Below, in pieces: positions 43,235-51,287 of a DNA stretch of 64,000 nucleotides. The notes beneath the pieces were generated by a model that did not search any database, was not told where the DNA came from, and saw only the letters and a list, made by a program, of their open reading frames with translations. Location of the stretch: positions 2,605,232 to 2,669,231 of the forward strand of contig OZ242013.1 in the NCBI GenBank assembly GCA_965204805.1. The letters are read 5' to 3'. Positions within the stretch are counted from its first letter, which is position 1. The number at the start of each line of letters is the position of its first letter. Source of the DNA: Dehalococcoidia bacterium. Lineage in GTDB: Bacteria; Chloroflexota; Dehalococcoidia; Lucifugimonadales; UBA3495. Both the position numbers and the translations under genes were made by a program.

Positions 43235-43516
43235 ATGGCCAGGTTTCTAGCCACGCACAGCATATCGGGACTGACCGAAGAAGAACTCCGCAGCAAGCTG
43301 GGGGCCTACACCGGCGGCGTGAGCAAGTGGCGCCCCGACCGCCGCACGACCATACTGAAGGTCTACGCCGACACGTCCAGCGGCAAGCTCTTCACCGAGT
43401 GCGAGGCCGTGGAGCAGTCGCACTTCGAGGACTGGATGAACATGGTGGGCTGGCCCGCCGAGGAGGTCCGCCAGGTGGACCTGATATTCCAGACCGGCGA
43501 TATGTGGCGGGTGTAA
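43235..43516 (+). CDS. small DUF4242-like protein
   Basis: 93 aa. 'MARFLATHSISGLTEEELRSKL...KLFTECEAVEQSHFEDWMNMVGWPAEEVRQV' shows loose family resemblance. An RBS AAAGAGG lies upstream. Confidence 0.4.
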   Translation: MARFLATHSISGLTEEELRSKLGAYTGGVSKWRPDRRTTILKVYADTSSGKLFTECEAVEQSHFEDWMNMVGWPAEEVRQVDLIFQTGDMWRV

Positions 43517-43568
43517 AAGAGAGGGGCGGTCCGATGGCCGCCCCTGTCCGTTTGTGCGCCAGAGTATT

Positions 43569-45467
43569 CTAGCCACGCCGCCCGTGGCGGTAGGGACTGT
43601 CTACCCCCTCAATATGTCCCTGTTCCGATGGGGTTCTGTAGCCCTCGACAAAAGAAGATGCTCTAATAGATTCGACCACTTGCCCCGTTTCTGTCGGTTC
43701 ACGCTGCAAGTCAGGTTCCGTAGCTTCCCGTTGCAAGTCGGTCTGCCATGGCGGGGCATCAACAATCAAGTCCACCTTTGTCCACGGCAACCCCGGCCCA
43801 CTCGAATGCTTCTCGACACCCACCCGTCCGTACCTGTCGATAATCAAACGCAGGCTGGTTGCGGGAAGCCGTGACGAGCTGCCTTCCTGCCCCGATTCCA
43901 AATACCCGTCAATGGTGTAACGTGCTGGACGAGTATTGTCTTGAGGATCCTGAATGAAGACACCATTCGGATAGGTGATTGTTAATTCGTATTCGTGCGG
44001 CTCCGAATTTTCCTGTAGCAGAGGCTCAGACACAAATGGCTCGAACGGATTTGAGTCCCGAATGGGCCGACGCTCCGTATCGCCGTCATCTTGCTTGTGC
44101 TTGTAGTTGAAGTGCCGATACGGCTCGTACTCGACGTTCGCTCCTGTCTGCAAATCTTGCAGCACTATGCGAGCGGGTATTCGGTTAAGGTATAGAGGGG
44201 CATACGGCTCCTCATAGCTGTAGCAAGCCCCCATGCTGATGCTGACCAATTCCAAGTTGGGCGTTCCAATCAAGGTGGGTAACAGCTCGGTAGCCGTTAT
44301 TATCTTTTCCTCTCCAAACCATTCGGCAAGCTCTCTGGGGAAGTAGCCAGCTTTTGTAGGGCCTCCAACCAGGATGATCTTGTCAATGTCGCGGGCGATG
44401 TCTTCCCACATCAGTTGCCAAACAAATCGCATCTCCCCTGTATTCTTGTCTTGCGTGGCAATTTCCCCTATTGGTGGAACATCCTCACTTTCGTCGCGCT
44501 TCCACAGCACCTTGGCGCCGACATATGCGTCCCTAGTAGTTGAGATTGACTTCTGAGAAAAATTTTTCTCGCGCAGTACCATTTCCACTTGGTCCAAAGT
44601 GATGACGCTCCCATCACCCAAGACTTCGGACGGATTTTCTGGAGATAGCCGCTCCTTGGCCCGTCTTAATAAATTTGGCTGTCCTTTATAGGCTACTTTT
44701 TCGGTAAGCCCATCGTCTACGTCTGAACCACCCAGTAGCGGGTGCCCATCAGCCCCGTATACCAGCATTTCGTCTTCTTTGACCTCTACTAAGGCACAGT
44801 CGAACGAACCCCCACCTAGATCGTAAACGAGGTATGATCCATCTGTAAGGTCGCCAAGTCTGCGGGCAAGCGTCAGAAACAGGATGGGTTCTTCAGCTAT
44901 CCAGGCAACATTGGCTTTCCCTGTTACCTTAAGCAGTGATTGAGCCAAACCTTCACGGTAAGACATATCAGCGTGTACCGGGCAACCTGCCCGCCATTCG
45001 AAGTCACCGATAATGCCAGAGCGCCGGAATGCTTCAGCCAGGATGCGGCGAATTAAATCCCAAACCGGAAACTCTTCACCCCATACCCTGAAACACCGTT
45101 CCACAGGGTCCCACTCTTTCTGAGGCCAATCGAGAGGTTTCTCTTTGGCCGCTTCCTGAGACTTTCTGACATTCAAATGCCAGCCTACGTAGGCATCGCT
45201 GGACAAGGCGTTCCGTTTGATGTTGCGAATCACCAGAGTCTTGTTTTCTTCATTTAGGAGATCATCGGCATCTTCTCCAACAATGATGTCGATGTTCCCA
45301 GCTTGGTTTTTCTGAAATGCGACCACCGCAGGCATGGTAGTGGTGCCCTGCTCAGTAGTGGTGCCCTGCTCACCTATCCGTTTGACGTCAGGTGGAAGGG
45401 TTTGGTCAGAATCCCAAGTTGAAATCCGAACATTTGTTGTGCCGAAATCTACACCGACAACCTGCAT
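43569..45467 (-). CDS. non-canonical Hsp70/actin-fold ATPase with an unrelated ~220-aa C-terminal region
   Basis: Phosphate-1 'VGVDFGTTNVRIS', phosphate-2 'YLVYDLGGGSFDCALVEV' and adenosine motif 'KIILVGGPTKAGYFP'. There is no Hsp70 substrate-binding domain. The ATG overlaps the upstream stop (TAATG). Confidence 0.75.
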   Translation of the reverse strand: MQVVGVDFGTTNVRISTWDSDQTLPPDVKRIGEQGTTTEQGTTTMPAVVAFQKNQAGNIDIIVGEDADDLLNEENKTLVIRNIKRNALSSDAYVGWHLNVRKSQEAAKEKPLDWPQKEWDPVERCFRVWGEEFPVWDLIRRILAEAFRRSGIIGDFEWRAGCPVHADMSYREGLAQSLLKVTGKANVAWIAEEPILFLTLARRLGDLTDGSYLVYDLGGGSFDCALVEVKEDEMLVYGADGHPLLGGSDVDDGLTEKVAYKGQPNLLRRAKERLSPENPSEVLGDGSVITLDQVEMVLREKNFSQKSISTTRDAYVGAKVLWKRDESEDVPPIGEIATQDKNTGEMRFVWQLMWEDIARDIDKIILVGGPTKAGYFPRELAEWFGEEKIITATELLPTLIGTPNLELVSISMGACYSYEEPYAPLYLNRIPARIVLQDLQTGANVEYEPYRHFNYKHKQDDGDTERRPIRDSNPFEPFVSEPLLQENSEPHEYELTITYPNGVFIQDPQDNTRPARYTIDGYLESGQEGSSSRLPATSLRLIIDRYGRVGVEKHSSGPGLPWTKVDLIVDAPPWQTDLQREATEPDLQREPTETGQVVESIRASSFVEGYRTPSEQGHIEGVDSPYRHGRRG

Positions 45468-47254
45468 TAGCAAACCTCTGTTTCAGTTGACACGCTGGCC
45501 TTGAGGATTACCCGCTCGCCGACAACTACACCCGGAGCCGCTAGGCGCACCTTCGCTCCAGTGGGAATTGCTTCCGGCGAGTGGTGTAGCTTTGGATCAT
45601 ATTTCACTGTATCGCCAACCATACCTAAAGTCTCAGCTCCACCCTCGCGCAAAGCGTTGGGCAGAGTTGCTATCACGTTGCCAAGCCGATCGTCAGCATT
45701 CTTACCCTGGAGATACGCTCTCTGAAGGGCATCGCCTACTGCCAGCAACATATCCCACCGGATTTCAAGTCTAGATTCCTCACGCCCTGATTTCATTTGG
45801 GCGTCTAAGGATTCAACTTGCTGCCGTAACCGCTCCTGCTCCCACTGCCTCTGTTCCATATCAGCCTCGTGGAGCTGGCGCAAGGCTACCTTTTCTTCCT
45901 CAATACGGACATGAGTCGCGTGATAGAGTGCGTGAGCGGCGGTATCAGATGTAGTGAGAGCGGTATCCAATTCCTGCGACGCTTGGATCGCAAACTCGCC
46001 CGTGCCGTCGGTCAGCAGTAAGGTCGCCAGCACAAGCAGGTTCAGACGGTCCGGGCCTGTAGAGTAGCGGCTGTTAGCAATGTAATTAAGCAATTTGTTC
46101 TTGTCATCCTGCCCTGATGGTGCGGTTAGGGCAATCATCTCTTGTATCCGCTGTGCGCCTTTGCCCTCGGTCACGTCATCTAAGATGCGGTCCAGTTCGT
46201 CGAGGTCTGGATACCGGCGCGGAGAATCATCTATACGGAGAGCAGCTAAAGCAATTTCCCGCGCTAGTTCCGCACGGTTCTGGTGGCCTAGTAGATCAGA
46301 TACGACGCGAAACAGATTGCGGCGATTGCGGCGGGCATTGTTGTCGGATTCCTGAACTGCCGTCCACACGCCAGCGGCGAATCCCTGCTGCCATTCCTCC
46401 GGCTGACCACTCAACGCACCTGCCAGCAACAACCACTCACCGGACTTGGAGTATCCGACAGTTTGGGACAGCGGCATCAAAATCTCGGTAACTTGGGGGG
46501 CGAGATAACTTCTATCGAACAGCCCTACGCACTCATGCCAGCGCAACGACGCCCTCCCTACTGATTCCATCCAACCCGCGGCTGCCGGTTTGGCGGGCCG
46601 TTCAGACGCCAAAAACACTCTGGCACCTTGCAGCATCTTCTCCAACGCATATTGGATGGTCTCGGATGGCCAGTCGGCAAGAGCATTGGCTACGGCCTTT
46701 GGTGGATATCGTCCCGGCGGGGGTTCGTCCTGGTACGAATTGATCCACTCTTTCCATAGCTCAACTGGACTGGGATTTGGTGGAGGCGTCCAGTTCCTAG
46801 GCACAGCGTCAACAGCAGATAGGAGAGTGTATTCATTGCCTCCCTTAGCTTTATCAACCCTGAAGTGCTCCGGCAAGCTGCCCAACGGCTTGGTGCGCTT
46901 GCTCCACCAATTCTTCCACTTGCCGTCCTCGATTACCCAGCCGTCCAGCTTTTCACGGATGTCGGCGGACTTGCCGCTGTTGCCACCGACCGAGAGGGCC
47001 ACCGCCGTCAGTTTCAAGGGCGCTTCCTCGGCCCATGAAGCCAGTTCGCCAGGCCGTTCCCACAACAGGGCTTCAGCGGCGCCGTCAGGCAACGGCTCCA
47101 GAAAGCGTTGCGGCACTGAAACATTGGTAGAGTCCCAAAACTCAACCTGCGCATCCTCGCCGTTGAGTTCCAAGACTCTCCCGACTTCCGGTTTCGGGGC
47201 GCTGGGGCGATTGTTCCGAACAAACATCCCCGCCTGGATTCCTGATTCACTCAC
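45467..47254 (-). CDS. large protein with a coiled coil and a GrpE-like C-terminal domain (putative dedicated nucleotide-exchange factor)
   Basis: The C-terminus reads 'MLLAVGDALQRAY...LGNVIATLPNALREGGAETLGMVGDTVKYDPKLHHSPEAIPTGAKVRLAAPGVVVGERVILKASV'. It parallels GrpE 'LLPVIDSLDRAL...FGVEVI...PLDPNVHQAI...GYTLNGRTIRAAMV'. It is preceded by the long helix 'EEEKVALRQLHEADMEQRQWEQERLRQQVESLD'. The N-terminus is SH3/Tudor-like: 'GMFVRNNR...VGRVLELNGEDAQVEFWD'. Confidence 0.6.
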   Translation of the reverse strand: MSESGIQAGMFVRNNRPSAPKPEVGRVLELNGEDAQVEFWDSTNVSVPQRFLEPLPDGAAEALLWERPGELASWAEEAPLKLTAVALSVGGNSGKSADIREKLDGWVIEDGKWKNWWSKRTKPLGSLPEHFRVDKAKGGNEYTLLSAVDAVPRNWTPPPNPSPVELWKEWINSYQDEPPPGRYPPKAVANALADWPSETIQYALEKMLQGARVFLASERPAKPAAAGWMESVGRASLRWHECVGLFDRSYLAPQVTEILMPLSQTVGYSKSGEWLLLAGALSGQPEEWQQGFAAGVWTAVQESDNNARRNRRNLFRVVSDLLGHQNRAELAREIALAALRIDDSPRRYPDLDELDRILDDVTEGKGAQRIQEMIALTAPSGQDDKNKLLNYIANSRYSTGPDRLNLLVLATLLLTDGTGEFAIQASQELDTALTTSDTAAHALYHATHVRIEEEKVALRQLHEADMEQRQWEQERLRQQVESLDAQMKSGREESRLEIRWDMLLAVGDALQRAYLQGKNADDRLGNVIATLPNALREGGAETLGMVGDTVKYDPKLHHSPEAIPTGAKVRLAAPGVVVGERVILKASVSTETEVC

Positions 47255-47333
47255 GCCTGTTTACCCGCCTGTCATCGCAGCCGCTTCTAGTCCCATTCTA
47301 TTTTATTACATAACGCGCCCTTTGTTAAATACT

Positions 47334-47912
47334 TCAGCGCACCCGTCCCCACTCCTTTGGCGGCCAGATGCGCAGCCAGGCGCGGCCGATGATACGGTCA
47401 GCAGGGACAGGGCCGAAGGCGCGGCTGTCGGTGCTGCGGGAGGGGTTGTCCCCGAGAACGAAGTATTCGTCGGGCCCGTTCCACCAGTTGCCGTTTATTT
47501 TGCCGTCCGGGCCTGCGGGGATGTAGTCGGGGATTAGCAGGAGGTCATCGGCATACAGCCGTCCGCCGTCCAGGACAATGGACTCGTCGGGCATTCCCAC
47601 CACGCGCTTGATGAACCAGCCCCACGGCGGCGTCAACTGCCTGAATACCACCACGTCGCCCCGCCGCAGCCTACCACGATGAAGGAAGGGCGGCATCAGA
47701 AGCACATATTGGCCGTCCTCAAGAGTCGGGGCCATACTGTCGCCCTCAACTCGAAACCGCACCGGCGAGTCTTTGGCATCAGACCTTCCCATATTCACCG
47801 CCGGAGTAAATTGAGCGCCGAGTACGCCGAGAATTATACTGGAAAACCCCCTATCCCCTCGGCGCTCCCGGCGTACTCGGCGTTTAACTTCCCCATGATA
47901 GAATTGGCCCAC
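47334..47912 (-). CDS. lepB: signal peptidase I
   Basis: 'GDSMAPTL' (Ser box), 'IKRVVGMPDE' (Lys box) and 'GDNPSRSTDSR'. Confidence 0.9.
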   Translation of the reverse strand: MGQFYHGEVKRRVRRERRGDRGFSSIILGVLGAQFTPAVNMGRSDAKDSPVRFRVEGDSMAPTLEDGQYVLLMPPFLHRGRLRRGDVVVFRQLTPPWGWFIKRVVGMPDESIVLDGGRLYADDLLLIPDYIPAGPDGKINGNWWNGPDEYFVLGDNPSRSTDSRAFGPVPADRIIGRAWLRIWPPKEWGRVR

Positions 47913-47938: not shown

Positions 47939-49000
47939 ATGCAGAACGGAATCATCCGCGTCGGCCTTATAGGGGCCGGGGCCAACACCCGCCTTCGCCA
48001 CATTCCCGGCTTCCGCGAGCAGCGCGACGTGGACATTGTCGCCGTCGCCAACCGCAGCCGGGAGTCAGGCGAGCGTATCGCCGCCGAGTATGAGATTCCC
48101 AAGGTCTACGACAATTGGGTTGACCTGCTGGACGACGACAGCATAGACGCCGTCTGCGTCGGCACCTGGCCCTATATGCACCGCAACCTGGTGATAGCAT
48201 CACTGGTGGCCGGCAAGCATGTGCTCACCGAGGCCCGCATGGCGATGGACGCCGACGAGGCCCACGAGATGCTGGACGCCAGCCGCCTGCACCCTGACCT
48301 AGTGACGCAGATCGTCCCGGCCCCGCAGACGCTGGAGGTGGACAACACGGTCATCGAGCACGTGGGCAACGGCTACCTGGGCGACATCCTGGCCGTGCGC
48401 CTGCGGGTATGCGACTACCACGGGCGCAGCAACCGCGCCGATACCTTCATAGACACCGAAGCGCCGCTGCACTGGCGGCAGGACCGCACCCTGAGCGGCT
48501 ACAACATCCTGGGCATGGGCATCTGGTACGAGACTGTGATGCGCTACGTCGGCCCGGCCACCAAGGTGTCGGCCATGACCCGCACCTTCGCCAACCGCCG
48601 CCCCGACGAGAAGGGCGTGATGCAGGCTGTCACCGTGCCCGACCACGTGAACGTGCTGGCCGAGATGGGCTGCGGGGCCGCCGCCGATTTCAGTTGGAGC
48701 GCGGTCACCGGACTGCAAACCGGCACCGACTTCTGGATTTTCGGCACCGACGGCACCATCAGCCTGCAGGGCCCACCCTTCAACAAGGTGCTGGGCGGCA
48801 AGCGCGGCGACGAGGCCCTCTCCGAGCTGCCCATTGTGAACCGGGGCAAGTGGCGGGTGGAGGAGGAGTTCATCAACGCCATCCGCGGCGAGGAACCCAT
48901 AACCCACACCCCCTTCGACATCGGCGTACAGTACATGGAGTTCACCGAGGCCGTAACCCGCAGCGCCCAGACAGGCCAGGCGGTGGCCCTGCCGCTTTAG
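47939..49000 (+). CDS. Gfo/Idh/MocA-family oxidoreductase, paralog 1
   Basis: Rossmann 'IRVGLIGAGANTRLRHIPGF' and 'GKHVLTEARMA'. Confidence 0.85.
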   Translation: MQNGIIRVGLIGAGANTRLRHIPGFREQRDVDIVAVANRSRESGERIAAEYEIPKVYDNWVDLLDDDSIDAVCVGTWPYMHRNLVIASLVAGKHVLTEARMAMDADEAHEMLDASRLHPDLVTQIVPAPQTLEVDNTVIEHVGNGYLGDILAVRLRVCDYHGRSNRADTFIDTEAPLHWRQDRTLSGYNILGMGIWYETVMRYVGPATKVSAMTRTFANRRPDEKGVMQAVTVPDHVNVLAEMGCGAAADFSWSAVTGLQTGTDFWIFGTDGTISLQGPPFNKVLGGKRGDEALSELPIVNRGKWRVEEEFINAIRGEEPITHTPFDIGVQYMEFTEAVTRSAQTGQAVALPL

Positions 49001-49012
49001 GAGAAGCATCAG

Positions 49013-49369
49013 ATGGGAGAGTTTTATTGGCGCGTCGGTGTCTGGAGCGCCGACGGCGAGCGCATGGGAACTGTTGATGCGCTGGTAGACACCGGCGCGT
49101 CGTACTCGCTGTTCCCGCGAAGCATGCTTGAACGGTTGGGTATTGTTCCTATCGGACAGCGCGGGTTCGAGCAGGCCGATGGCAGTGTAATCTACCGCGA
49201 TATTGGCCGGGCAATGTTGCGGATTAACGACGACGAAGATGTTCAGAGGGTGATATTCGGCGAAGATGATGCCGAACCCCTTATAGGAGCGGGAACCCTG
49301 CAAGGGTTTCTGCTGCTGGTAGACCCGGTAGCAGAGGAGCTGGTGCCGCGGACGGGCAGGCTGAAGTAA
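49013..49369 (+). CDS. single-domain retropepsin-like aspartic protease, copy 1
   Basis: 'MGEFYWRVGV...VDALVDTGASYSLFP...PLIGAGTLQGFLLLVDP' carries the D-T-G-A catalytic motif; 118 aa. Confidence 0.7.
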   Translation: MGEFYWRVGVWSADGERMGTVDALVDTGASYSLFPRSMLERLGIVPIGQRGFEQADGSVIYRDIGRAMLRINDDEDVQRVIFGEDDAEPLIGAGTLQGFLLLVDPVAEELVPRTGRLK

Positions 49370-49386
49370 TGAAGGAAAGGGAGCAG

Positions 49387-49785
49387 ATGGGAACTTTCCA
49401 CCATGAAATGCAGATTTTCAGCGCGAACGGGGATAGATCCGAGATGGTGGATGCCCTAGTTGATACTGGCGCGTCATATTCTCAGATTCCCGCTTCCGTA
49501 CTGCAACGCTTGGGAATTCTGCCCACTGACACAGTGGAAGCTGTATTGGCAGACGGCCGGGTGGTTGAGGACCTTGCCGCCGAAATTCGGGTTCGGATTG
49601 ACGGGCTTGAAACGTTTACATGGGTTACATTCGGGCCTGAGAACGTCGCTTCACTTATGGGAGCTCATGCTTTGGAAGGAGTGAGGCTTGCGGTTGATCC
49701 GCTGCGCCGTCTCTTGGTGCCCACCCGGATATTGCGAATGCGGAACGAACAAATAGATGATTTAACCGGGCAGTCTGGACAATAA
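49387..49785 (+). CDS. single-domain retropepsin-like aspartic protease, copy 2
   Basis: 'MGTFHHEMQIF...VDALVDTGASYSQIP...SLMGAHALEGVRLAVDP'. An ATG at 49369 is an alternative start. Confidence 0.7.
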   Translation: MGTFHHEMQIFSANGDRSEMVDALVDTGASYSQIPASVLQRLGILPTDTVEAVLADGRVVEDLAAEIRVRIDGLETFTWVTFGPENVASLMGAHALEGVRLAVDPLRRLLVPTRILRMRNEQIDDLTGQSGQ

Positions 49786-49817
49786 TGCGGCAACAACTGG
49801 GAAAGCGAGGAATGACC

Positions 49818-50173
49818 ATGGGAACCTTCTACTGGCCGGTAGAGGTAGGCAGCATGGATGGCAATACCTTCGAGATCGTAGATGCGATGGTGGACACCGG
49901 AGCTTTCTATACCAATCTGCCGGCCAGTCAGCTCCGCCGCATCGGCGTAGTTCCCAGCCGTCGCAGGCGGTTCAGGCTGGGCGACGGGAGAATTGTCGAG
50001 CGTGAAACCGGGCCGGCCATTGTTCGCGTTGCCGGAGAGGAAACGTATACAATCGTTGTGTTCGGCGAAGAGGACACGCGCCCCTCTTGGGCGCATATAC
50101 CCTGGAGGGAGCCGCCTTGGTGGTAGACCCGCAAGGACAACTTCTGGCTCCTGCCGATAATTTGATGCTGTAG
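49818..50173 (+). pseudogene. retropepsin-like aspartic protease, copy 3, frameshifted at a C4 run
   Basis: 'MGTFYWPVEV...VDAMVDTGAFYTNLP...VVFGEEDTR' is followed, after CCCC 50081..50084, by the family C-terminus 'PLLGAYTLEGAALVVDPQGQLLAP' in the -1 frame (stop 50171..50173). Confidence 0.6.
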
Positions 50174-50249
50174 CGCAACGCAAATGCGGCATGGCGCACA
50201 GCGATGTTCATTAGCACTATCAGCGCAAACTCGTGAATGGAGAAACAAC

Positions 50250-51287
50250 ATGGCTGACGAAGGCATACGAATCGGGCTTATCGGCGCGGGGCGGAACACC
50301 CGCGACCGGCACATCCCCGGGTTCCACGATGTTGACGGGGTGGAGATTGTGGCGGTGGCCAACCGCTCCCGCGAGTCGGGGCAGGTGGTGGCCGACCAGT
50401 TCAACATCCCCGCGGTCTACGACAGTTGGCAGGAGCTGCTGGAAGACGAGTCCATCAACGCCGTCTGCATCGGCACCTGGCCGTATATGCACCGAACCCT
50501 GACCATCGCCGCGCTGGAAGCGGGCAAGCACGTCCTGACCGAGGCTCGCATGGCGTCGTCGGCCGCCGAGGCGCGGGAGATGCTGGACGCTTCTCGGTCC
50601 CGCCCCGGCCTGGTCACCCAGATTGTGCCGTCTCCCCTGACCTTCAAGGTGGACAATTTGTTGACGCAGAAGATTGCCGAGGGGTACGTGGGCGACGTGC
50701 TGGCGGTGTCGGTGCAATCGCTGACGCCGGGGTTCGCCGACACCGGCGGGCCGATGCACTGGCGCAACGACCGCGACCTCAGCGGCTACAACATCCTCAA
50801 CATGGGCATCTGGTACGAGGCGATGATTCGCTGGGTCGGCCCGGCGACGCGGGTGATGGCCAACACCAAGGTCAACGTGAGGCAGCGCCGCGACGAGGAC
50901 GGGCAGCCGGTTCCGGTGACCATCCCCGACCACGTGGACATTCTGGCCGACCTGGCGTCCGGGGCGCAGGCCAATATGCGGTTCAGCGCGGTGACCGGGT
51001 TCGGCCCCGGCAACGAGGTCTGGATTTACGGCAGCGAGGGTACGCTGCGCGTGGACCCGGCCCTGAACGTCTACGGCGGGCAGCGGGGTGACAGCGCGAT
51101 GACCGAGATACCCAACCCGCCCGAAGGCCAGGCCTACTGGCGCGTGGAGGAGGAGTTCTGTAGCGCGATTCGCGGGCAGGAGCGCATCACCCGCACTCCC
51201 TTCGACGTGGGCGTTCACTACATGGAGTTCACGGAGGCCGTAACCCGCAGCTCCCAGACTCGGCAGGTGGTGTCGCTGCCGCTGTAA
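50250..51287 (+). CDS. Gfo/Idh/MocA-family oxidoreductase, paralog 2
   Basis: 'MADEGIRIGLIGAGRNTRDRHIPGF...GKHVLTEARMA', collinear with 47939..49000. Confidence 0.85.
   Translation: MADEGIRIGLIGAGRNTRDRHIPGFHDVDGVEIVAVANRSRESGQVVADQFNIPAVYDSWQELLEDESINAVCIGTWPYMHRTLTIAALEAGKHVLTEARMASSAAEAREMLDASRSRPGLVTQIVPSPLTFKVDNLLTQKIAEGYVGDVLAVSVQSLTPGFADTGGPMHWRNDRDLSGYNILNMGIWYEAMIRWVGPATRVMANTKVNVRQRRDEDGQPVPVTIPDHVDILADLASGAQANMRFSAVTGFGPGNEVWIYGSEGTLRVDPALNVYGGQRGDSAMTEIPNPPEGQAYWRVEEEFCSAIRGQERITRTPFDVGVHYMEFTEAVTRSSQTRQVVSLPL

What the first reader, a model, noticed from the sequence alone, without database searches (positions are those of the whole stretch)
43569..47254. Translationally coupled module: GrpE-like-tailed 595-aa protein plus a non-canonical Hsp70-like ATPase
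The downstream gene (632 aa) has all three Hsp70/actin nucleotide-binding signatures ('DFGTTN', 'DLGGGSFD', 'LVGGPTK'). It lacks the Hsp70 substrate-binding domain. Instead it carries ~220 aa of unrelated sequence ending in short 'DLQRE(A/P)TE' repeats. The upstream gene (595 aa) ends in a long coiled coil followed by a segment collinear with the GrpE dimerisation/beta-domain ('LLAVGDALQRAY', 'YDPKLHHS', 'GVVVGERVILKASV'). It begins with an SH3/Tudor-like 'VGRVLELNGEDAQVEFWD' module and a large helical middle region of unknown function. The two ORFs overlap as TAATG. The ~3.7-kb segment is visibly AT-richer than its neighbours and is flanked by unrelated housekeeping genes (lepB and a convergent small gene). 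A dedicated exchange-factor/Hsp70-like pair with novel client-facing domains is not a standard chaperone operon: there is no DnaJ and no canonical DnaK. It could be a conflict/defence or specialised remodelling system, and I cannot match it to a named system.
Basis: partly seen in the sequence, partly recalled or inferred. Interest (0 to 1): 0.8.

Follow-up and report, generated by a model that had tools for sequence, protein, structure and literature searches.

The report
Dedicated Hsp70-like ATPase with GrpE-tailed adaptor
Two tightly coupled genes in a Dehalococcoidia genome encode a stripped-down Hsp70-type ATPase and a large partner protein that ends in a GrpE-like nucleotide-exchange module. 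Related genomes swap this pair as a cassette at one fixed chromosomal site, and its cellular job is unknown.

Summary
Two minus-strand ORFs (595 aa, 45467-47254; 632 aa, 43569-45467) overlap as TAATG. They lie between a promoter-like and a terminator-like site.

- **Gene B** has an Hsp70 nucleotide-binding domain with the nucleotide-binding motifs and the residues aligned to DnaK's catalytic Lys and Glu. It has no detectable Hsp70 substrate-binding domain.
- **Gene A** reads Tudor-like barrel, winged HTH (Pfam PF27167 'HTH_GRAD' in relatives), helical repeats, then a long helix, helical bundle and beta domain. Family profiles link that tail to solved GrpE (PDB 3a6m E=1e-4; hhalign 92%; Foldseek prob 1.0).
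- **Linkage:** the pair is adjacent in all 41 other loci examined, all named ones Chloroflexota, in varied contexts that are mostly housekeeping. I found no J-domain, effector, PADLOC hit, phage or plasmid copy.

New finding: in close relatives, flanking DNA is 88-90% identical up to the operon's edges. Inside, A and B are about 40-45% identical with saturated synonymous sites and a different GC content. A second breakpoint lies at the start of the GrpE-like module.

Best reading: a dedicated Hsp70/exchange-factor machine whose adaptor half and engine half are exchanged as cassettes. The client is unknown. I rate it a new variant of a known kind.

The parts
47300..47328 (-). Promoter-like site (TTAACA-17-TAAAAT, 10 of 12) between the S26 peptidase gene and gene A
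   Evidence: Consensus scan only. It lies in the flank that stays 88-90% identical to L022/L014.
45467..47254 (-). Gene A: 595-aa modular adaptor with a GrpE-like tail. The start may instead be the ATG at 47227.
   Evidence: ORF. There are 84 close homologues and 489 representatives at E<=1e-3. Relatives carry PF27167 'HTH_GRAD'. AF2 mean pLDDT is 81.
47090..47227 (-). A residues ~10-55: small five-stranded beta barrel, Tudor/SH3-like of the PcrA/UvrD type
   Evidence: AF2 strands at 11-14, 24-31, 34-39, 44-48 and 52-54. The A3 profile hits PcrA/UvrD Tudor structures: 9dqs_A at E=0.0076, with 7egt, 7egs, 6yi2 and 9dci weaker. Pfam PF21196 matches 4 of 69 relatives, best E=7.6e-4. This evidence is weak.
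46820..47077 (-). A residues ~60-145: helices plus a beta hairpin (winged-HTH-like). This is probably the PF27167 'HTH_GRAD' region, but the extent of that Pfam match was not returned. It is the most conserved N-terminal segment (W74, P79, L80, L82, W116, W117).
   Evidence: Secondary structure. Invariant columns. Pfam name from the context tables.
45950..46768 (-). A residues ~163-435: alpha-helical repeat region (HEAT/solenoid-like). It varies in length and is partly missing in some alleles.
   Evidence: AF2 helices. Foldseek and HMM hits go to helical-repeat proteins only. Relatives of 466-542 aa lack part of it. The most variable stretch lies just before the coiled coil.
45485..45943 (-). 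A residues ~438-590: GrpE-like module. It comprises a 51-residue helix, two bundle helices and a six-strand beta domain, with a 'DPxxH' motif at 553-557.
   Evidence: AF2 topology. Foldseek 3a6m_A prob 1.00, E=1.6e-2. A3 profile against 3a6m_A E=1.1e-4 and 4ani_A E=0.043. hhalign 92%, P=6e-7, against 0.3% for the reversed control. Pfam GrpE E=3.2e-5 in relative P0477. The module is 79% identical in L034, where B is 84% and the N-terminus of A only 45%.
43569..45467 (-). Gene B: 632-aa Hsp70-like ATPase. Its ATG overlaps the stop of A (TAATG).
   Evidence: AF2 pLDDT 81 and pTM 0.84. Foldseek top hits are full-length DnaK, E=2e-21.
44214..45467 (-). B residues 1-418: Hsp70 nucleotide-binding domain. 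D7/T10/T11 form phosphate-1. K84 aligns with DnaK K70 and E193-P194 with DnaK E171-P172. D216-G-G-G-S-F-D223 forms phosphate-2, and G368-G369 the adenosine motif.
   Evidence: Invariant columns. Alignments to DnaK.
43758..44186 (-). B residues ~428-570: beta-rich domain in the position of the Hsp70 substrate-binding domain. Conserved motifs are NRLPARVTLEDLQTG, LRLVIDRxGRVGVE and PPWQT.
   Evidence: AF2 strands. No significant match to any solved structure, with an Hsp70 SBD (3dqg) only at E=1.8. hhalign against DnaK/HSPA1A/HscA SBD gives 0.1%.
43572..43757 (-). B residues 571-632: low-confidence variable tail. It contains the DLQREATE / DLQREPTE duplication (43689-43739).
   Evidence: pLDDT below 50 for 586-598 and 606-632. 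Motif positions. The tail is not conserved across A2.
43522..43545 (-). Terminator-like GC-rich hairpin with a T-rich tail, 24 nt after the stop of B
   Evidence: It coincides with the point where nucleotide identity to L022, L014 and L007 resumes.
43548..47227 (.). Replaced cassette. DNA outside is 87-90% identical to the closest genomes. DNA inside is not alignable to them. An internal breakpoint lies near 45882 (A residue ~457).
   Evidence: blastn boundaries. Synonymous-site saturation. GC heterogeneity.

Best explanation
The two genes form a self-contained bicistronic operon that encodes a specialised Hsp70-type machine.

**Gene B** is the motor. It has an intact Hsp70 nucleotide-binding domain followed by a conserved beta-rich C-terminal domain that replaces, or is unrecognisably diverged from, the canonical substrate-binding domain.

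**Gene A** is its dedicated partner. Its C-terminal long helix, helical bundle and beta domain form a GrpE-type module. By analogy with GrpE, this module would dimerise through the long helix and insert its beta domain into the nucleotide cleft of B to release ADP. The N-terminal two thirds (Tudor-like barrel, winged HTH, helical repeats) would act as a targeting scaffold that brings the motor to a particular partner, possibly a nucleoprotein or RNA polymerase complex.

**Status of each step**
- Shown: the operon structure, the domain homologies, the strict gene linkage, and purifying selection.
- Inferred: the physical A-B contact, the exchange activity, and the targeting role.
- Unknown: the client.

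At the population level the operon behaves as an exchangeable cassette at a fixed chromosomal site. It has two separately swappable halves: the adaptor (A residues ~10-457) and the engine (the GrpE-like tail of A plus B).
For: **B is an Hsp70-type ATPase**
- Pfam HSP70 39.4 bits against a cut-off of 20.6. Every PDB profile hit listed is an Hsp70, best E=1e-15. Foldseek to DnaK E=2e-21.
- The nucleotide-binding motifs are invariant across 42 homologues, as are the residues aligned to DnaK K70 and E171.

**The tail of A is GrpE-like**
- A3 profile against GrpE 3a6m_A E=1.1e-4.
- hhalign 92%, P=6e-7, against 0.3% for the reversed control.
- Foldseek 3a6m_A prob 1.00. AF2 topology matches GrpE.
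- Pfam GrpE at E=3e-5 in relative P0477, which has the same architecture.

**Linkage**
- B follows A within ~10 nt in 32 of 32 genome loci, in L034, and in 8 of 8 distant contexts.
- TAATG overlap. Promoter-like and terminator-like sites bracket the pair.

**Co-inheritance of the GrpE-like tail with B**
- In L034, A 458-595 is 79% identical and B 84%, while A 1-284 is 45%.
- Mantel r is 0.73 for the tail of A against the B NBD, and 0.29 for the tail of A against the N-terminus of A.
- The DNA breakpoint lies at window ~45882.

**Functional constraint**
- dN/dS is 0.11 for B and 0.11 for the tail of A.
Against: - The window protein itself has no Pfam or NCBIfam GrpE hit. The narrower A1 profile found no GrpE in the PDB. 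Homology appears only with the wider family profile.
- No complex model was possible, so the A-B interface is untested.
- Co-inheritance of the tail of A with B could reflect physical linkage on the DNA alone.
- Hsp70 cycles normally need a J-domain protein, and none is in the operon or nearby (a weak test).
- The C-terminal domain of B has no demonstrable peptide-binding fold.
- The N-terminal Tudor and HTH assignments are weak (E about 1e-2 to 1e-3).
Confidence: 0.6

Rival explanations
1. The pair is a conflict or anti-phage (or anti-mobile-element) system. The variable adaptor half of A senses an invader component. The Hsp70-like engine then remodels or sequesters it, or a host target. Arms-race pressure maintains several deeply diverged allele classes that move between genomes by recombination.
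For: - Genomes whose flanks are 88-97% identical carry A/B alleles only 40-46% identical, with saturated synonymous sites.
- Pair GC ranges from 0.50 to 0.68 while flanks stay mostly 0.58-0.64.
- There are five B allele classes at 60% identity. The adaptor half is swapped independently of the engine half.
- One distant locus (L044) sits among NYN, DUF4268, DUF1643 and DUF4326 genes.
- Hsp70-like modules are described in predicted conflict systems: CoCoNuT CnuD (PMC11090510) and GAP1-N2 systems with HSP70 plus GrpE (PMC7159879).
Against: - No PADLOC hit for either protein. PHROGs gave nothing for A and only a short match of B to a PHROG of unknown function.
- No nuclease, protease, TIR, pore or other effector domain in the pair.
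- No homologues in phage or plasmid collections beyond giant-virus Hsp70s.
- Most contexts are housekeeping and syntenic. Two loci lie downstream of groES-groEL, directly in L042 and three genes away in L037.
- The site always holds the same gene family rather than alternating systems.
- Selection is strongly purifying.
Confidence: 0.2
2. The pair is a lineage-specific housekeeping proteostasis module of Chloroflexota, a 'DnaK derivative' with its own exchange factor. It serves one endogenous client or stress condition. The allele replacement is neutral lateral exchange among relatives.
For: - The pair is widespread: 489 representative clusters at E<=1e-3.
- No second copy was found in the 64-kb window or in the ~17-kb stretch held for each genome locus.
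- It is embedded in conserved metabolic synteny. In two loci it lies downstream of groES-groEL, directly in L042 and three genes away in L037.
- dN/dS is about 0.1.
- A recent review notes that many bacteria carry uncharacterised DnaK-derived paralogues (PMC13580251).
Against: - Housekeeping genes rarely differ by 55-60% in protein sequence between genomes whose neighbouring genes differ by 3-10%.
- Neutral exchange does not explain breakpoints that coincide with the operon edges and a domain junction.
- Nothing explains the Tudor/wHTH adaptor under this reading.
Confidence: 0.3
3. B is not a chaperone. It is an actin/Hsp70-fold filament or scaffold protein, and the tail of A is only a coiled-coil dimerisation module that resembles GrpE by convergence.
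For: - The C-terminal domain of B has no detectable Hsp70 SBD similarity.
- One relative shows a faint MreB_Mbl Pfam hit.
- Much of the GrpE match runs through coiled coil, which attracts spurious hits.
Against: - All significant B hits are Hsp70, not MreB, FtsA or ParM.
- The GrpE alignment extends through the bundle and beta domain and includes the DPxxH motif. hhalign still gives 75% when the coiled coil is removed.
- The AF2 beta-domain topology matches GrpE.
Confidence: 0.08

Closest known systems
Canonical DnaK-GrpE (with DnaJ) chaperone system
   Same: Both pair an Hsp70-type nucleotide-binding domain with a protein whose long helix, bundle and beta domain are homologous to GrpE. The residues aligned to DnaK's catalytic and nucleotide-binding positions are retained.
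   Different: B lacks a recognisable substrate-binding domain and lid, and scores ~55 bits against a 648-bit DnaK cut-off. The GrpE-like module is the last quarter of a 595-aa multidomain protein. No J-domain gene is linked. The operon is exchanged as a cassette.
All4144 of Anabaena PCC 7120, an HTH-GrpE fusion (bioRxiv 10.1101/2025.04.14.648684)
   Same: A GrpE module is fused to an N-terminal helix-turn-helix region. The authors report exchange-factor activity together with DNA binding.
   Different: All4144 is 214 aa, works with the canonical DnaK, and has no Tudor or helical-repeat region. Sequence relatedness of its HTH to A was not tested.
Myxococcus xanthus grpS-sglK pair and other 'DnaK derivatives' (grpS-sglK from my own recollection; the derivatives in review PMC13580251)
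   Same: A dedicated GrpE-like gene lies immediately upstream of a specialised Hsp70 paralogue without a linked dnaJ. The review calls such paralogues largely unexplored.
   Different: As I recall it, SglK is a full-length DnaK homologue and GrpS a plain GrpE. No sequence comparison was made here.
Eukaryotic modular Hsp70 exchange factors (BAG proteins, HspBP1/Fes1/Sil1; textbook knowledge)
   Same: The logic is the same: an exchange module joined to targeting domains or helical repeats couples Hsp70 to a particular site or client.
   Different: These are unrelated folds for the exchange module (BAG three-helix bundle, armadillo repeats) and are eukaryotic. The parallel is an analogy only.
Hsp70-like components of predicted conflict systems: CoCoNuT CnuD (Hsp70-like NBD/SBD plus HEAT repeats; PMC11090510) and GAP1-N2 GTPase systems with HSP70 plus GrpE (PMC7159879)
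   Same: An Hsp70-like ATPase is combined with helical repeats or with a GrpE gene outside the standard chaperone operon.
   Different: No McrB/McrC, GTPase, FNIII or nuclease genes accompany the pair in any of the 41 other loci. The helical repeats are on the GrpE-like protein, not on the ATPase.

Membership tests
Hsp70 (Pfam PF00012), gene B | Actin/Hsp70-fold nucleotide-binding domain with phosphate-1, phosphate-2 and adenosine motifs and the catalytic Lys and Glu | tested here: met
   PF00012 scores 39.4 bits against GA 20.6. D7, T10, K84, E193, D216, G218-220, D223, G368 and G369 are invariant in 42 sequences, and T11 nearly so. They align to DnaK. Foldseek to DnaK E=2e-21.
Hsp70 (Pfam PF00012), gene B | Substrate-binding beta-sandwich and helical lid after a hydrophobic linker | tested here: not met
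   All HMM matches stop near residue 390. The C-terminal profile A4 finds no Hsp70 SBD, with 3dqg only at E=1.8. hhalign against three SBDs gives 0.1%. A beta-rich domain is present, and the motifs 'PLYLNRIPARIVL' and 'LIIDRYGRVGVE' resemble the linker/beta1 and 'FDIDANGIL'. That resemblance is by eye only.
DnaK / HscA equivalogs (NCBIfam) | Whole-protein score above the curated cut-off | tested here: not met
   The best is DnaK NF001413 at 55 bits against 648, and HscA TIGR01991 at 51 against 709.
GrpE (Pfam PF01025), C-terminus of gene A | Match to the GrpE profile at the curated threshold | tested here: not met
   The window protein has no hit. Among 69 relatives, 2 match at E<=0.01, the best being 24.1 bits against GA 25.8.
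GrpE (Pfam PF01025), C-terminus of gene A | Homology to solved GrpE detectable by profile methods, collinear through helix, bundle and beta domain | tested here: met
   A3 profile against 3a6m_A E=1.1e-4 over profile positions 458-595, and 4ani_A E=0.043. hhalign 92%, P=6.4e-7 over 129 columns, with the reversed control at 0.3%. Foldseek 3a6m_A prob 1.00.
GrpE (Pfam PF01025), C-terminus of gene A | Topology (long N-terminal helix, two bundle helices, small beta domain) and the conserved 'DPxxH' motif | tested here: met
   AF2 gives H438-488, H491-513, H520-537 and six strands in 541-590. YDPKLHHS lies at 552, and H557 is nearly invariant across A3.
GrpE (Pfam PF01025), C-terminus of gene A | Homodimer that binds an Hsp70 NBD and accelerates nucleotide release | not testable with these tools
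No biochemistry is available.
PcrA/UvrD Tudor domain (PF21196), N-terminus of gene A | Profile match and small beta-barrel fold | tested here: inconclusive
   4 of 69 relatives match at E<=0.01, best 7.6e-4 and below GA. A3 profile against 9dqs_A E=0.0076, with four further PcrA/UvrD Tudor chains at E=0.3-0.9. AF2 shows five short strands.
Known anti-phage defence systems (PADLOC-DB 2.0) | Match of either protein to a defence-system model | tested here: not met
   0 families for both proteins at E<=1.
CoCoNuT type III (CnuD Hsp70-like with McrBC-like genes) | Linked McrB-like GTPase and DUF2357/McrC-like gene | tested here: not met
   No such genes appear among the called or scanned neighbours in the window or related loci. 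Sequence similarity to CnuD itself was not tested.

The most novel reading that the evidence does not exclude
The pair is an effector-less, polymorphic Hsp70-based surveillance system.

- The exchangeable adaptor half of A (Tudor, wHTH and variable helical repeats) is a specificity determinant. It docks on a nucleoprotein machine such as RNA polymerase or an invader's replication or transcription complex.
- The co-inherited GrpE-like tail and Hsp70-like ATPase dismantle that complex.
- Allele classes are maintained and shuffled among Dehalococcoidia by conflict-driven balancing or diversifying selection.
Probability: 0.15. Interest if true: 0.85.

Novelty: new variant of a known kind. Interest (0 to 1): 0.62.

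Why it matters
Bacterial Hsp70 paralogues outside DnaK and HscA are largely uncharacterised (review PMC13580251). This pair offers a clean case with several useful properties:

- It is a two-gene unit with strict linkage.
- The exchange factor is built into a large targeting scaffold. That design is familiar from eukaryotic BAG and HspBP1 proteins, and I found no description of it for bacterial GrpE at this scale.
- The substrate-binding end of the Hsp70 has been replaced or remodelled.

The cassette-like replacement has breakpoints at the operon edges and at the junction before the GrpE-like module. This gives natural 'domain-swap' variants. They could be used to test which half sets specificity and whether the tail of A and the ATPase must match.

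If the diversification is conflict-driven, this would be a new kind of chaperone-based immunity. If it is not, the pair still defines a testable specialised chaperone in a large, uncultured bacterial group.

Tried and rejected
1. **Single-sequence and narrow-profile searches of A against the PDB** found no GrpE. Only the wider 69-sequence profile did.
2. **The third homologue search, spent on E. coli GrpE,** listed only enterobacterial GrpE. That was too shallow for a good GrpE profile. I used three diverse GrpE sequences taken from PDB alignments instead.
3. **Testing the C-terminus of B as a divergent Hsp70 SBD** was negative by hhalign and by PDB profile search.
4. **The meaning of 'GRAD' in PF27167 HTH_GRAD:** four literature searches found nothing. 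A fifth search, combining GRAD with anti-phage terms, also found nothing.
5. **Phage and plasmid collections:** no homologues of A. For B there were only giant-virus Hsp70s at 22-25% identity. The A3 alignment was too diverse for the viral locus scan.
6. **lepB as part of the system:** rejected. It is linked only in the syntenic Dehalococcoidia group and absent from the other contexts. It also lies outside the replaced cassette.
7. **A 'defence hotspot' with alternating cargo:** rejected. Extra DNA between lepB and A in L009 is an IS66-like transposase by eye, and the occupant is always the A-B pair.
8. **In-situ fast evolution as the cause of divergence:** rejected. Synonymous sites are saturated inside the cassette, while flanks have dS of 0.15-0.47.

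Full report
**1. What is in the sequence**

On the minus strand there are two ORFs. Gene A is 45467-47254 (595 aa, GTG start). Gene B is 43569-45467 (632 aa, ATG start). The junction reads GCTAATGCAG, so the TAA stop of A and the ATG of B share one base, and a GAGG lies about 7 nt upstream.

A promoter-like site (TTAACA-17-TAAAAT) lies at 47328-47300, between the upstream S26 signal-peptidase gene and A. A GC-rich hairpin with a T-rich tail lies at 43545-43522, 24 nt after the stop of B. Both are consensus matches only.

The pair has GC 0.543 against 0.604 for the rest of the window. Neighbours are a Peptidase_S26 gene, a 92-aa convergent ORF without a Pfam match, hot-dog-fold (FAS1_DH_region) genes, PfkB, DUF192 and GFO/IDH/MocA oxidoreductases. 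tblastn finds no DnaK, GrpE or J-domain elsewhere in the window.

**2. Gene B**

- Pfam HSP70 matches above threshold (39.4 bits, GA 20.6).
- The NCBIfam DnaK and HscA models score only 40-55 bits against cut-offs of 620-1019.
- A 42-sequence profile hits only Hsp70 chains among those listed from the PDB (best E=1e-15). Every match ends near residue 380-390.
- The AF2 model (pLDDT 81, pTM 0.84) finds full-length DnaK best (E=2e-21). TM-scores are barely higher than for NBD-only chains.
- Invariant columns across the family include D7, G9, T10, N12, K84, E193, P194, D216, G218-220, S221, F222, D223, G368 and G369. These align to the DnaK phosphate-1 motif, K70, E171, the phosphate-2 motif and the adenosine motif. 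B should therefore bind and hydrolyse ATP.

Residues 428-570 are beta-rich and well conserved (NRLPARVTLEDLQTG, LRLVIDRxGRVGVE, PPWQT). An 18-sequence profile of this part finds nothing significant in the PDB. An Hsp70 SBD fragment (3dqg) appears only at E=1.8. hhalign against three Hsp70 SBD sequences gives 0.1%.

Two motifs look SBD-like by eye, and a domain-level fold comparison is still needed. The last ~60 residues are variable and of low confidence. The 'DLQRE' repeat is a local duplication.

**3. Gene A**

AF2 (pLDDT 81) gives the following layout:

| Residues | Predicted structure |
|---|---|
| 11-54 | five-strand small barrel |
| 60-145 | helices plus a hairpin |
| 163-435 | helical repeats |
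| 438-488 | 51-residue helix |
| 491-537 | two helices |
| 541-590 | six short strands |

The protein alone has no Pfam, NCBIfam, PADLOC or PDB match. A 40-sequence profile found only coiled coils.

An exhaustive profile search showed that the family is large. There are 489 representative clusters at E<=1e-3 and 134 at E<=1e-30. With a 69-sequence alignment of this wider family (A3) the results were:

- Thermus GrpE 3a6m_A is hit at E=1.1e-4 over profile positions 458-595. Geobacillus GrpE 4ani_A is hit at E=0.043.
- hhalign against a three-sequence GrpE alignment gives 92% probability (P=6e-7, 129 columns). It still gives 75% without the coiled coil. A reversed control gives 0.3%.
- Foldseek with the whole model already ranked 3a6m_A fourth with probability 1.00.
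- A distant member with the same architecture (P0477) has a near-threshold Pfam GrpE match (E=3.2e-5, 24.1 bits against 25.8) at its C-terminus.
- The GrpE 'DPxxH' motif is present, and its His is nearly invariant.

The GrpE-like assignment is thus supported as remote homology. It is not membership at Pfam's threshold.

The N-terminal barrel gets weak but consistent PcrA/UvrD Tudor hits: 9dqs_A at E=0.0076, four more such chains at E=0.3-0.9, and PF21196 in 4 of 69 relatives. Relatives carry a precomputed Pfam family PF27167, named 'HTH_GRAD' in the context tables. By position I assign it to the 60-145 region, but the extent of the match was not returned. I found no paper explaining that name.

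**4. Linkage and distribution**

A scan of one genome per species returned 32 loci. All are Dehalococcoidia, Chloroflexi or Chloroflexia MAGs. In 32 of 32 a B homologue starts within about 10 nt of the end of A. The same holds for a Tara metagenome scaffold (L034). It also holds for eight distant family members sampled from the representative search.

Outside the syntenic group the neighbours are unrelated metabolic genes. Two loci lie downstream of groES-groEL, directly in L042 and three genes away in L037. One locus lies among NYN and DUF genes.

No third gene is conserved with the pair. tblastn with the E. coli J-domain found no match in the loci held at that point, L001-L041. No homologue of A was found in the plasmid collection. 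The viral scan, run with B only because the A3 alignment was too diverse to scan, found only giant-virus Hsp70s. Neither PADLOC nor PHROGs gave an informative hit.

**5. An unexpected property: cassette replacement**

About 30 of the 32 genomes share the order GFO - S26 peptidase - A - B - small ORF - hot-dog genes. The flanking proteins are mostly 80-97% identical to the window's. A is 34-60% identical and B 42-60%.

The two genomes with the most similar flanks (L022 and L014, 87-97%) have A at 40% and B at 45-46%. The genome with the least similar flanks (L029) has the best A and B among the species representatives (60% each).

At the DNA level, identity to L022 and L014 (87-90%) stops at window 43545-43547. 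It resumes at 47220-47228. That is exactly from the terminator-like hairpin to about codon 10 of A.

| Comparison (window against L022) | Synonymous divergence | dN |
|---|---|---|
| Inside the cassette (A, B) | saturated (pS 0.69-0.81) | about 0.5 |
| Flanking genes | dS 0.15-0.47 | 0.02-0.06 |

The divergence is therefore old and was imported. It was not produced by fast local evolution.

Pair GC ranges from 0.50 to 0.68 across loci, while flanks stay mostly 0.58-0.64. B falls into five classes at 60% identity. The window shares its class with L029 and L034.

Against L034, identity runs through B and the last 138 residues of A (79% protein identity; B 84%). It breaks at about 45882. The N-terminal 284 residues of A are only 45% identical, and the middle is missing.

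Across 33 loci, distances in the tail of A follow B (Mantel r = 0.73-0.75) much better than they follow the N-terminus of A (r = 0.29). Selection on the close pair is purifying (dN/dS 0.11 for B and for the tail of A). Within the main class the most variable parts of A are residues 1-75 and about 420-465.

**6. Interpretation**

The simplest account is a dedicated Hsp70-type machine. B is the ATPase. The GrpE-like tail of A is its exchange factor. The rest of A is a targeting scaffold.

The co-inheritance of the tail with B fits a matched interface, but physical linkage alone could also produce it. The PcrA/UvrD-type Tudor domain is known from other work to bind RNA polymerase. Together with a winged HTH it suggests a nucleoprotein target, but that is speculation.

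The cassette behaviour is what one sees at loci under diversifying or balancing selection, and it keeps a conflict role open. However, no effector, defence neighbourhood or mobile-element copy supports that role. I put the mechanistic core at 0.6. For the biological role I put housekeeping-specialised at about 0.3 and conflict at about 0.2, with the remainder unknown.

**7. Comparison with known systems**

- The pair works like DnaK-GrpE but fails the membership tests for DnaK and HscA, and for GrpE at the curated threshold.
- The nearest described parallels are an HTH-GrpE fusion in Anabaena and the grpS-sglK pair of Myxococcus (from my recollection).
- Eukaryotic modular exchange factors are an analogy only.
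- Hsp70-like parts occur in CoCoNuT and GAP1-N2 systems, but their defining partner genes are absent here.
- A 2026 review describes DnaK-derived paralogues as largely unexplored.

I rate the pair a new variant of a known kind.

**8. Limits**

- No complex model and no domain-level fold search were possible.
The E. coli GrpE sequence was confirmed at 99-100% against database entries.
- Loci were selected for carrying A, so I cannot say whether any related genome lacks the pair.
- Taxonomy beyond the 32 named MAGs is unknown.

Noticed in passing
window 45337-45372 (gene B residues ~33-44): A perfect 18-nt tandem duplication (GTAGTGGTGCCCTGCTCA x2) encodes EQGTTT-EQGTTT in a low-confidence loop of the NBD. 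Among the 21 A2 homologues displayed, the extra residues appear only in the window sequence, so it looks like a recent slippage event.
   Followed up: partly
window 49013-50126: Three tandem small paralogous genes (118, 138 and 113 aa) lie between two paralogous GFO/IDH/MocA oxidoreductase genes (47939-49000 and 50184-51287, ~58% identical). The first was scanned and matches retropepsin-like aspartyl protease families (gag-asp_proteas / Asp_protease_2). The number of these small genes varies from about 2 to 5 among related loci.
   Followed up: partly
window 47334-47912 and related loci: The S26 signal-peptidase-like gene upstream of A is much more variable among relatives (51-95% identity) than the other flanking genes (mostly 80-97%). 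It is called at only 133-169 aa in some loci, with a short and weakly hydrophobic N-terminus.
   Followed up: no
L009 6486-7823 (minus strand): A 445-aa ORF sits between the peptidase gene and gene A in one relative, which explains the longer spacer there. By eye it looks like an IS66-family transposase (HADETGW motif). It was not scanned against Pfam.
   Followed up: no
L042 2469-8268 and L037 1878-11641: In two distant loci the A-B pair lies downstream of groES-groEL (Cpn10-Cpn60) and next to a UbiA gene. In L042 it follows the chaperonin operon directly.
   Followed up: no
L044 1-11707: One distant A-B pair sits among NYN, DUF4268, DUF1643 and DUF4326 genes and many small ORFs. This looks like a variable or mobile region, unlike the housekeeping contexts elsewhere.
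   Followed up: no
window 43240-43516 (+): A conserved 92-aa convergent ORF (MARFLATHSISGLTEEELRSKL...) has no Pfam or PHROG match. It is present in 29 of 32 syntenic loci at 55-87% identity and lies outside the replaced cassette.
   Followed up: partly
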